Of a DNA stretch of 22,976 bases, positions 3,637 through 3,861 are shown piece by piece. Below the pieces are notes generated by a model. It saw only the letters and a list, made by a program, of their open reading frames with translations. It ran no database searches and had not been told where the DNA came from. The stretch comes from a virus (Duplodnaviria; Heunggongvirae; Uroviricota; Caudoviricetes): the IMG/VR virus record IMGVR_UViG_2563366959_000008. One strand, 5' to 3'. The first letter of the stretch is position 1. Each line of letters begins with the position of its first letter. Both the position numbers and the translations under genes were made by a program.

Positions 3637-3861
3637 TTAAGTAAACCTGTCTGAACAGGTGCTCTGGTCGTGTTTGTCTTTGTTGGGTACAAATTGAGAA
3701 TATTTTTCATTAATTAATCTTCTTCTGCAGGCTTCAATAACCCACGCTGAAAAATTACCTGAACCTTTCAGGTCAAGAGCGATGTTAATTTGTTCAATTA
3801 TCTGGTTTGGAAATCGGATGTTGCGGGTTGTTGTTCTGCGGGTTCTGTTCTTTGATGACAT
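3637..3861 (-). CDS. DUF3950 / YlcI-YnfO-like small protein, probable ribbon-helix-helix DNA binder
   Basis: 74 aa; MSSKNRTRRTTTRNIRFPNQIIEQINIAL…GNFSAWVIEACRRRL has a basic N-tail, a beta-strand-like RNIRFP and two helices (RHH-like). Recalled to resemble the prophage protein found just upstream of terminase small-subunit genes in E. coli cryptic prophages. Confidence 0.5.
   Translation of the reverse strand: MSSKNRTRRTTTRNIRFPNQIIEQINIALDLKGSGNFSAWVIEACRRRLINEKYSQFVPNKDKHDQSTCSDRFT

What the first reader, a model, noticed from the sequence alone, without database searches (positions are those of the whole stretch)
3637..3861. Ribbon-helix-helix-like small DNA-binding protein encoded next to cos on the opposite strand
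The 74-aa minus-strand ORF has a basic N-tail, a short beta-strand-like RNIRFP and two helices (NQIIEQINIAL, FSAWVIEACRRRL), the layout of Arc/MetJ/CopG RHH proteins. It resembles the DUF3950 (YlcI/YnfO) proteins I recall sitting just upstream of terminase small-subunit genes in E. coli cryptic prophages. A conserved DNA binder at the cos/terminase junction, convergent with the PerC-like gene, could act on packaging or late transcription, or be the antitoxin-like half of a degraded pair.
Basis: partly seen in the sequence, partly recalled or inferred. Interest (0 to 1): 0.4.

Follow-up and report, generated by a model that had tools for sequence, protein, structure and literature searches.

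The report
Known YlcI/YnfO small protein beside cos
The 74-residue gene next to the phage cos site is a real, strongly conserved member of the already catalogued YlcI/YnfO (DUF3950) family, most likely a small Arc-like DNA-binding regulator whose target and role remain untested.

Summary
The ORF at 3637..3861 (-) is real. It matches Pfam DUF3950 (E 1.3e-17) and NCBIfam YlcI_YnfO_N. RefSeq annotates the gene under 100%-identical DNA as "YlcI/YnfO family protein", and 3804 of 5426 complete E. coli genomes carry a related copy. Codons 1-50 are under strong purifying selection (pN/pS about 0.07-0.15); the tail after residue ~50 is hypervariable.

The ribbon-helix-helix reading is supported by sequence only. 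Family members give weak, in-register hits to the same Arc-like and HicB-like PHROG profiles that genuine Arc, Mnt and CopG hit. The AlphaFold monomer shows two helices after an extended N-terminus, but at low confidence, and fold searches found nothing.

In K-12, lambda itself (where the gene is unannotated) and EHEC prophages, it is the last gene before the packaging module, on the opposite strand. The same allele sits beside at least four different packaging modules, including HNH-type ones, so a cos-specific packaging role is unlikely. There is no toxin partner here.

Best reading: an independently transcribed small DNA-binding regulator with an unknown target. The gene is already known and of modest interest.

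The parts
3637..3861 (-). Coding sequence, 74 aa, YlcI/YnfO (DUF3950) family protein
   Evidence: ORF list. Pfam PF13132 E 1.3e-17 and NCBIfam NF041551 above cut-off. RefSeq annotates a YlcI/YnfO family protein (WP_001300236.1) under 100%-identical DNA. pN/pS 0.07-0.15.
3712..3825 (-). Conserved core (residues 13-50): putative beta-strand RNIRF, helix A, G-S-G-N-F-S turn, helix B
   Evidence: I15, R16, I25, F37, V41 and C45 are invariant; F17, N36, S38, W40 and A44 nearly so. Helices at 19-32 and 39-56 in the model. In-register hits to Arc-like PHROGs.
3637..3711 (-). Non-conserved C-terminal tail (residues 51-74) and stop codon
   Evidence: Alleles diverge completely after about residue 50 and range from about 60 to 89 aa. 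This 74-aa tail travels together with the PerC gene.
3869..3872 (-). Shine-Dalgarno-like GGGG, 7 nt before the ATG
   Evidence: Read directly from the sequence.
3592..3618 (.). Bidirectional intrinsic terminator hairpin (A5-GCGAC ... GTCGC-T5), shared with the convergent PerC gene
   Evidence: Folds on both strands, z -3.8 and -4.3, 0 of 200 shuffles as stable.
3862..4040 (.). Conserved non-coding block between the start codon and cosQ; presumed to hold the gene's promoter
   Evidence: Divergence of only 0.09-0.12 per site between haplotypes whose synonymous divergence in the adjacent gene is 0.45-0.53. No consensus sigma-70 promoter was found. No coding signal. No strong RNA structure.
3931..3963 (.). 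Inverted repeat ATCAATTAATACG-N7-CGTAATAATTGAT; candidate operator or cos-associated element
   Evidence: Found by the repeat finder and conserved in lambda. Absent from HNH-type contexts, so it cannot be a universal operator for the family.
4069..4080 (+). cosN cohesive-end sequence GGGCGGCGACCT
   Evidence: Read directly from the sequence. Aligns to the lambda right and left ends.
3241..3555 (+). Convergent neighbour: PerC-family regulator, 104 aa
   Evidence: Pfam PF06069 E 3.8e-44. RefSeq annotation.
4264..4773 (+). Divergent neighbour: Nu1-type small terminase subunit
   Evidence: Pfam Phage_Nu1 E 1e-18 and phrog_1790/57. RefSeq annotation.

Best explanation
The ORF encodes a YlcI/YnfO-family protein. 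It has a basic core of about 50 residues that most likely adopts an Arc/Mnt-like ribbon-helix-helix fold, followed by a dispensable variable tail.

Inferred structure: two copies pair their N-terminal strands (..R13-N14-I15-R16-F17-P18..) into a beta-ribbon that reads the DNA major groove. The N36-F37-S38 start of helix B and the basic N-terminal arm hold the phosphate backbone.

Shown by the sequence: the gene is its own leftward transcription unit, with its own ribosome-binding site and a bidirectional terminator. It lies antisense to the Q-dependent late operon, as the last gene before the packaging module, 207 bp from the right cohesive end. Inferred from that: it can only be expressed efficiently when late transcription is off, that is in the lysogen or immediately after DNA entry.

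Most likely function (inferred): a small sequence-specific transcriptional repressor. It is not part of the packaging machine and not an antitoxin in this window. Its DNA target is not identified.
For: - Family membership and purifying selection.
- Helix positions in the model.
- 11 of 20 family members hit phrog_497 (HicB-like), best E 8.3e-5. The isolated DUF3950 domain of P0187 hits phrog_228, 582 and 876 at E 0.003-0.005. It does so in the profile columns matched by genuine Arc and Mnt (phrog_228, phrog_582) and CopG (phrog_582). For phrog_876 the columns differ from CopG's (63-106 against 8-49).
- hhalign aligns RNIRFPNQIIEQINIALDLKGSGNFS with Arc FNLRWPREVLDLVRKVAEENGRSVNS. This equates N14/R16/P18/G33/S38 with Arc N11/R13/P15/G30/S35.
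- Terminator and orientation.
- The position is conserved in K-12, lambda, and Nu1-type and HNH-type prophages.
- Homologues are transcribed in uninduced cells: a K-12 ybcW-ylcI convergent transcript overlap (PMC12288877) and a DUF3950 gene among the differentially expressed genes of O157:H7 (PMC7709258).
- In PICI satellites, paralogues sit opposite the replication operon, in a regulator-like position, preceded by repeated GTG-N5-6-CAC motifs spaced 20-45 nt apart.
Against: - No PDB sequence match.
- No Pfam RHH family hit for any member.
- No sigma-70 consensus promoter upstream.
- No operator shared between Nu1-type and HNH-type contexts.
- The PICI repeats could instead bind AlpA or another protein.
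- No experimental function is reported for any family member in the held literature.
Confidence: 0.55

Rival explanations
1. It is a packaging accessory factor. The protein binds the cos region or the small terminase and modulates cos cleavage or packaging specificity.
For: - It is always the gene adjacent to the packaging module.
- The 179-bp block between it and cosQ is far more conserved than synonymous sites.
- In PICI satellites the DUF3950 domain is fused to a copy of the TerS N-terminal DNA-binding domain, 60-64% identical to residues 2-54 of an HNH-type phage TerS.
Against: - The identical 74-aa allele lies beside lambda Nu1, two other Nu1 variants (71-73% and 100% to the window's), and HNH + Terminase_2 modules. 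These have different cos sites.
- In HNH-type phages the HNH gene separates it from the TerS gene.
- It is antisense to the late operon that makes terminase.
- No shared DNA motif exists upstream in the two contexts.
Confidence: 0.12
2. It is the regulator or antitoxin half of a two-gene leftward cassette (DUF3950 then DUF1398) that has lost its partner in this prophage.
For: - Weak similarity to the DNA-binding domain of HicB-like antitoxins.
- In Qin-type loci a DUF1398 gene (ydfO) follows on the same strand after 57 nt. In lambda and DLP12 the DUF1398 gene is still downstream on the same strand, with ybcW/p79 inserted between. There are 51 loci in total, none with DUF1398 on the opposite strand or upstream.
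Against: - No DUF1398 gene or any same-strand neighbour in the window; a terminator follows directly.
- 91 of 142 loci have no DUF1398 gene.
- The C-terminal tail, which in RHH antitoxins binds the toxin, is not conserved.
- According to a paper citing earlier work, YdfO overexpression increases oxidative-stress resistance rather than being toxic (PMC4077768).
- The upstream ORF 3877-4032 shows no coding constraint.
Confidence: 0.1
3. It is an entry-first or anti-satellite function. The gene lies within 430 bp of the right DNA end and is transcribed inward. According to established lambda biology the right end enters the cell first, so this could be the first gene expressed on infection, for example to act on resident PICI satellites that use paralogous proteins.
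For: - Position and orientation relative to the physical genome end are kept across unrelated packaging modules.
- Hits in the phage collection are to cos-type lambdoid phages.
- PICIs and cf-PICIs carry paralogues in a regulatory position.
Against: - Purely inferential.
- No promoter was identified.
- PICI repeat motifs are absent from the window.
- The strand residues differ between most PICI paralogues (K-G-I-R-F) and phage proteins (R-N-I-R-F).
- The gene is retained in long-defective cryptic prophages of K-12.
Confidence: 0.1
4. It is not a functional protein. The conserved DNA is a cos-proximal or recombination-linker element, and the ORF is incidental.
For: - The flanking non-coding DNA is as conserved as the gene.
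- Synonymous variation is absent over codons 7-15.
- Mosaic junctions lie on both sides of the conserved core.
Against: - pN/pS of 0.07-0.15 with pS up to 0.65.
- Protein-level homologues at 35-57% identity occur in unrelated DNA contexts: PICIs, the Rouxiella and Tatumella chromosomes, and downstream of cdtABC.
Confidence: 0.03

Closest known systems
YlcI (DLP12) and YnfO (Qin) of E. coli K-12; Pfam DUF3950 / NCBIfam YlcI_YnfO_N
   Same: Same family: all three share residues 1-49 almost exactly. Same position and orientation, divergent from the Nu1-type gene (nohD, nohA) with a gap of about 390-400 bp.
   Different: The C-terminal tail differs (74 aa here, 64 and 77 aa there). The downstream neighbour here is a convergent PerC gene rather than ybcW or ydfO. 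No member has a tested function.
Unannotated lambda ORF at 48109..48303 (complement), 64 aa
   Same: 89% identical over residues 1-53. Same distance from cosN. The upstream non-coding block is about 90% identical.
   Different: Absent from the feature tables of NC_001416 and J02459. It is not the 'orf-64' of the lambda literature, which is lambdap73 between Q and S.
Arc and Mnt repressors of phage P22 (ribbon-helix-helix)
   Same: Same size and element order. The N-x-R-x-P strand motif, the glycine turn and the serine at the start of helix B align. Family members and Arc/Mnt hit the same PHROG profile columns.
   Different: No significant pairwise similarity. No Pfam Arc or RHH hit. Dimer, operator and repression were not demonstrated. 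The genomic position is different: the lysis/packaging junction rather than immI.
RHH DNA-binding domain of HicB-like antitoxins (phrog_497)
   Same: The most frequent weak profile match: 11 of 20 members, best E 8.3e-5, always to profile columns about 97-154.
   Different: No HicB N-terminal domain, no HicA-like toxin gene nearby, and no conserved tail.
PICI / cf-PICI DUF3950 paralogues, including DUF3950 + TerS-N-terminal-domain fusions (P0207, P0187)
   Same: Same domain, with the FS(A/S)WV motif and the IRF strand. Also transcribed opposite to the element's main operon.
   Different: Located between alpA and the primase operon rather than next to a packaging module. Some carry an extra TerS-like helix-turn-helix domain. 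Preceded by conspicuous repeats that are absent from the window.

Membership tests
Pfam DUF3950 / NCBIfam YlcI_YnfO_N | Score above the curated cut-off of the family model | tested here: met
   PF13132 scores 63.8 bits against 25; NF041551 scores 34.5 against 30.
Pfam DUF3950 / NCBIfam YlcI_YnfO_N | Conserved NFSxWV motif at the start of the second helix | tested here: met
   N36-F37-S38-A39-W40-V41. F37 and V41 are invariant; N36, S38 and W40 are conserved in at least 90% of 20 diverse members.
Pfam DUF3950 / NCBIfam YlcI_YnfO_N | Position divergent from the small-terminase gene of a lambdoid prophage (typical of the named members, not a formal criterion) | tested here: met
   Window; K-12 ylcI/nohD and ynfO/nohA; about 90 further loci.
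Ribbon-helix-helix superfamily (Arc/MetJ/CopG) | Strand-helix-helix order within about 45 residues | tested here: inconclusive
   Helices at 19-32 and 39-56 are modelled. The N-terminal segment shows only two bridge residues, and mean pLDDT is 63.9. A lone RHH chain has no partner strand.
Ribbon-helix-helix superfamily (Arc/MetJ/CopG) | Sequence or profile similarity to established RHH families | tested here: inconclusive
   - Weak but in-register: phrog_497 in 11 of 20 members (8.3e-5); phrog_228, 582, 876 and 6506 at 0.003-0.03.
- phrog_228, 582 and 6506 match over the columns matched by Arc and Mnt, and phrog_582 also by CopG.
- hhalign P 0.012.
- No Pfam RHH hit and no PDB sequence hit.
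Ribbon-helix-helix superfamily (Arc/MetJ/CopG) | Structural match to solved RHH proteins | tested here: not met
Ribbon-helix-helix superfamily (Arc/MetJ/CopG) | Obligate dimer with an intermolecular two-stranded beta-ribbon that binds DNA | not testable with these tools
There is no multimer prediction tool and no binding assay.
Type II antitoxin (RHH type) | Co-transcribed adjacent toxin gene | tested here: not met
   There is no same-strand neighbour. A terminator follows the stop codon. The upstream ORF 3877-4032 has pN/pS of 0.8 in all frames.
Type II antitoxin (RHH type) | Conserved C-terminal toxin-binding segment | tested here: not met
   The tail after about residue 50 is unrelated between alleles.
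cos / terminase accessory factor | Co-variation with the type of terminase and cos site | tested here: not met
   The same allele lies next to four or more Nu1 variants and next to HNH + Terminase_2.
Moron (autonomous prophage accessory gene) | Own terminator, and orientation independent of the late operon | tested here: met
   Bidirectional hairpin at 3592-3618. The gene is antisense to the lysis and packaging genes.
Moron (autonomous prophage accessory gene) | Own promoter, and expression in the lysogen | tested here: inconclusive
   No consensus promoter was found. Transcripts of homologues are reported in uninduced K-12 and O157:H7. Nothing is known for this copy.

The most novel reading that the evidence does not exclude
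The DUF3950 gene may be tied to the physical right end of cos-packaged lambdoid genomes rather than to any terminase. It is the gene nearest the end that enters the cell first, and it is transcribed inward. It could therefore be an 'entry-first' DNA-binding protein. One possibility is a repressor mimic that interferes with resident PICI or cf-PICI satellites, which use paralogous DUF3950 proteins (some fused to a TerS DNA-binding domain) in their own control region.
Probability: 0.1. Interest if true: 0.65.

Novelty: already known. Interest (0 to 1): 0.28.

Why it matters
The family is one of the most widespread uncharacterised prophage genes in E. coli. Related copies occur in 3804 of 5426 complete genomes, with up to 12 copies per genome, and one lies unannotated in the lambda reference itself.

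If it is a DNA-binding regulator made from silent prophages, it could affect prophage stability, expression of neighbouring virulence regulators such as the PerC/Pch gene here, or phage-satellite conflicts.

For this window, the practical result is simpler. The finding is an ordinary, already catalogued gene. The suggested roles in packaging or as an antitoxin do not hold up against comparative evidence.

Tried and rejected
- PDB sequence searches with the protein, the family profile and two divergent members gave only chance hits. One was a Ku70 SAP-domain match at E 0.09, which I do not credit.
- Pfam at E up to 10 gave no RHH family for any member. PADLOC gave nothing meaningful.
- A search for an operator shared between Nu1-type and HNH-type upstream regions found nothing above chance. 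PICI repeat motifs are absent from the window.
- The upstream 51-aa ORF 3877-4032 was rejected as a partner gene: pN/pS is 0.8 in all frames, and its N-terminus is shifted by a 7-8-bp indel in other phages.
- An RNA element in the conserved non-coding block was considered. There is no Rfam hit, and the folding z-scores are only -1.2 and -1.9.
- The lambda 'orf-64' literature, including a Nu1-Orf64 two-hybrid hit, concerns lambdap73, a different gene, and was discarded.
- Reported 'mutations' in ylcI in two evolution papers carry no functional information.
- The second profile search returned only close relatives in its visible list.
- Most 50%-identity 'representatives' turned out to be error-laden reads of lambda control DNA, so the family is narrower than its counts suggest.

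Full report
**Observation**

A GGGG Shine-Dalgarno-like run lies 7 nt before the ATG.

A hairpin flanked by an A-run and a T-run (3592-3618) lies 19 nt past the stop codon. It folds on both strands, at -14.7 and -11.9 kcal/mol, and none of 200 shuffles is as stable. It also ends the convergent PerC-family gene at 3241-3555.

Upstream of the ATG lie 179 nt of AT-rich DNA, then the lambda-type cosQ/cosN region (GGGCGGCGACCT at 4069-4080), and then a Nu1-type small terminase gene at 4264. The window is the lysis-to-head region of a lambdoid prophage. 100%-identical DNA occurs in O103:H2 and other E. coli strains.

**Identity**

- The protein matches Pfam DUF3950 (63.8 bits against a cut-off of 25), NCBIfam YlcI_YnfO_N (34.5 against 30) and phrog_949, which has no assigned function.
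- RefSeq annotates the gene under 100%-identical DNA as a YlcI/YnfO family protein, WP_001300236.1.
- Related DNA is present in 3804 of 5426 complete E. coli genomes, with up to 12 places per genome. The full-length 74-aa allele is in 671 genomes.
- The ORF is a real gene. Across 31 distinct lambdoid alleles, codons 1-50 give pN/pS of 0.07-0.15 while synonymous divergence reaches 0.65.
- Beyond about residue 50 the alleles are unrelated and vary in length.
- The family is narrow. Many apparent 'representatives' are error-ridden reads of lambda control DNA. True members come from Enterobacterales and Pasteurella phages, satellites and a few chromosomal sites.

**Is it ribbon-helix-helix?**

The sequence evidence is better:
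- 11 of 20 members hit the HicB-like phrog_497, always at profile columns about 97-154 (best E 8.3e-5).
- The isolated DUF3950 domain of P0187 hits the Arc-like phrog_228, phrog_582 and phrog_876 at E 0.003-0.005. P0146 hits the Arc-like phrog_6506.
- As controls, genuine Arc and Mnt hit phrog_228, 582 and 6506 in the same columns. CopG hits phrog_582 in the same columns and phrog_876 in different ones.
- hhalign aligns RNIRFPNQIIEQINIALDLKGSGNFS with Arc FNLRWPREVLDLVRKVAEENGRSVNS at P 0.012. From my own knowledge of the Arc-operator complex, this equates N14 and R16 with the base-contacting N11 and R13.
- The invariant residues fit a hydrophobic core plus one DNA-facing arginine: I15, R16, I25, F37, V41 and C45, with F17, N36, S38, W40 and A44 nearly invariant.

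I put the RHH fold at roughly 0.75-0.8.

**Context**

In K-12, ylcI and ynfO are each divergent from a Nu1 homologue (nohD, nohA), with 388-bp gaps. Lambda itself carries a 64-aa homologue at 48109..48303 on the complementary strand. It is missing from the NC_001416 and J02459 feature tables. The 'orf-64' of the lambda literature is a different gene.

I classified about 140 loci with marker proteins. The gene is always the last one before the packaging module and always on the opposite strand. The identical 74-aa allele, together with its PerC neighbour, occurs next to:
- the window's Nu1 type;
- variants 71-73% identical to it;
- lambda Nu1;
- HNH + Terminase_2 modules, where the HNH start lies only about 40 bp from the DUF3950 start.

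A protein that recognised one cos site or one terminase would not be expected to travel this way, and no DNA motif is shared upstream in the two contexts. This argues against the cos- or packaging-specific idea.

The 179 nt between the ATG and cosQ diverge only 0.09-0.12 per site, where adjacent synonymous sites diverge 0.45-0.53. That DNA is therefore itself constrained. It contains a 13-bp-arm inverted repeat at 3931-3963. It shows no coding signal and no notable RNA structure. No consensus promoter was detected.

**Antitoxin idea**

Nothing in the window can serve as a partner. In Qin-type prophages, however, a DUF1398 gene (ydfO) follows on the same strand. In lambda and DLP12 the same gene lies further downstream, with ybcW/p79 inserted between. 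There is no case of the opposite arrangement. This suggests an older two-gene leftward unit, but nothing indicates that DUF1398 is a toxin.

**Satellites**

Paralogues occur in PICI and cf-PICI elements of E. coli and Pasteurella. They lie between alpA and the primase operon, on the opposite strand, and are preceded by GTG-N5-6-CAC repeats spaced 20-45 nt apart.

Two clusters (P0207, P0187) fuse the domain to a copy of the TerS N-terminal DNA-binding domain. That copy is 60-64% identical to residues 2-54 of an HNH-type phage TerS. A regulator-like position next to repeats fits a DNA-binding repressor. The fusion keeps a link to packaging conceivable for the satellites.

**Mechanism**

Shown:
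- an autonomous, constrained gene;
- a basic core of about 50 residues with Arc-like sequence features;
- orientation antisense to the late operon;
- a fixed position at the right genome end.

Inferred:
- a dimeric RHH DNA binder acting as a repressor when late transcription is off;
- the target is unknown.

The rivals are a packaging accessory (0.12), a remnant regulator or antitoxin of a DUF1398 cassette (0.10), an entry-first or anti-satellite protein (0.10) and an incidental ORF (0.03).

**Verdict**

The gene is already catalogued and very common, and no function has been tested in the literature I could search. Interest is modest. The side findings are the unannotated lambda copy, the independence from terminase type, the constrained non-coding block, and the satellite fusions. 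They give concrete experiments but do not make the window's gene novel.

Noticed in passing
L002 3110..3304 (-), which is lambda 48109..48303 complement: The lambda reference records NC_001416 and J02459 carry an intact 64-aa DUF3950 gene, 89% identical over residues 1-53, with no annotation. The 'orf-64' of the lambda literature is lambdap73, a different gene.
   Followed up: yes
L008-L048 (genome-contig hits) and plasmid hits H86-H96: Hits in Kitasatospora, Pseudomonas, Cohnella, Synechocystis, Acinetobacter 'plasmids' and others are 48.5-kb lambda or roughly 3.5-kb lambda right-end fragments. This is almost certainly sequencing-control DNA assembled into unrelated genomes. Many 50%-identity cluster representatives are error-laden versions of this one ORF.
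   Followed up: partly
window 3862-4040: The non-coding block between the gene and cosQ evolves 4-5 times more slowly than adjacent synonymous sites. It includes the inverted repeat 3931-3943/3951-3963 and the palindrome 4015-4030. No function is assigned to it.
   Followed up: partly
window 3822-3851 (codons 4-13 of the gene): Two tandem 15-nt units (TGCGGGTTGTTGTTC / TGCGGGTTCTGTTCT) encode the basic arm. Synonymous variation is absent over codons 7-15 across 31 alleles, although it is common elsewhere in the gene.
   Followed up: partly
L049 6001-6363 and L053 4714-5103: PICI and cf-PICI elements encode fusions of the DUF3950 domain to a TerS N-terminal helix-turn-helix. That domain is 60-64% identical to an HNH-type phage TerS, and slightly less to the satellite's own TerS. 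It could be a decoy or regulator acting at TerS binding sites.
   Followed up: partly
L053 4592-4646; L057 507-552; L058 4744-4838; L049 5545-5592 and 5891-5944: Repeated GTG-N5-6-CAC or palindromic motifs, spaced 20-45 nt apart, lie directly upstream of the satellite DUF3950 genes. They could be operators for these proteins, or for AlpA.
   Followed up: partly
L058 4853-5032 (+), Pasteurella phage Pmp7: A clear DUF3950 ORF is unannotated and lies antisense to a 224-aa CDS labelled 'transcriptional repressor'. That CDS has an odd, low-complexity-looking sequence, so the annotated CDS may be on the wrong strand.
   Followed up: partly
L049 8040-8881: In E. coli CP027459 the prophage small terminase gene is split, and the ORF that follows it ends where a cf-PICI integrase begins. 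This suggests the satellite inserted inside a prophage packaging gene.
   Followed up: no
L141 2257-2958; L140 1685-2946: A DUF1398 gene (ydfO, ybcV, lambda p78) is always downstream on the same strand when present: 24 loci directly adjacent and 27 with ybcW/p79 inserted between. This may be an ancestral two-gene leftward unit.
   Followed up: partly
window 6798-8107: A 1310-bp IS3-family element with 41-bp imperfect inverted repeats and an ALIL frameshift pseudoknot (7656-7772) interrupts the head-tail joining (gpW-like) gene. That gene is intact in the O103:H2 reference, so the prophage here is probably defective.
   Followed up: partly
window 4118-4126 (-), 4178-4186 (+), 4208-4216 (+): Three CCGGACATG repeats lie between cosN and the Nu1-type gene, where lambda has its R sites. 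They are probably the binding sites of this phage's small terminase variant.
   Followed up: no
window 3241-3555 (+): The 104-aa PerC-family gene is convergent with the DUF3950 gene and always co-inherited with the 74-aa allele. It resembles the Pch regulators of the LEE island in EHEC prophages (from my own knowledge).
   Followed up: no
L054 4001-4180 (Rouxiella); L043-L047 (Tatumella); L055 4001-4189: Divergent family members also occur outside prophage late regions. In Rouxiella one lies after a cytochrome bd oxidase operon, and in L055 one lies downstream of cdtABC. The Tatumella contexts were not examined.
   Followed up: no
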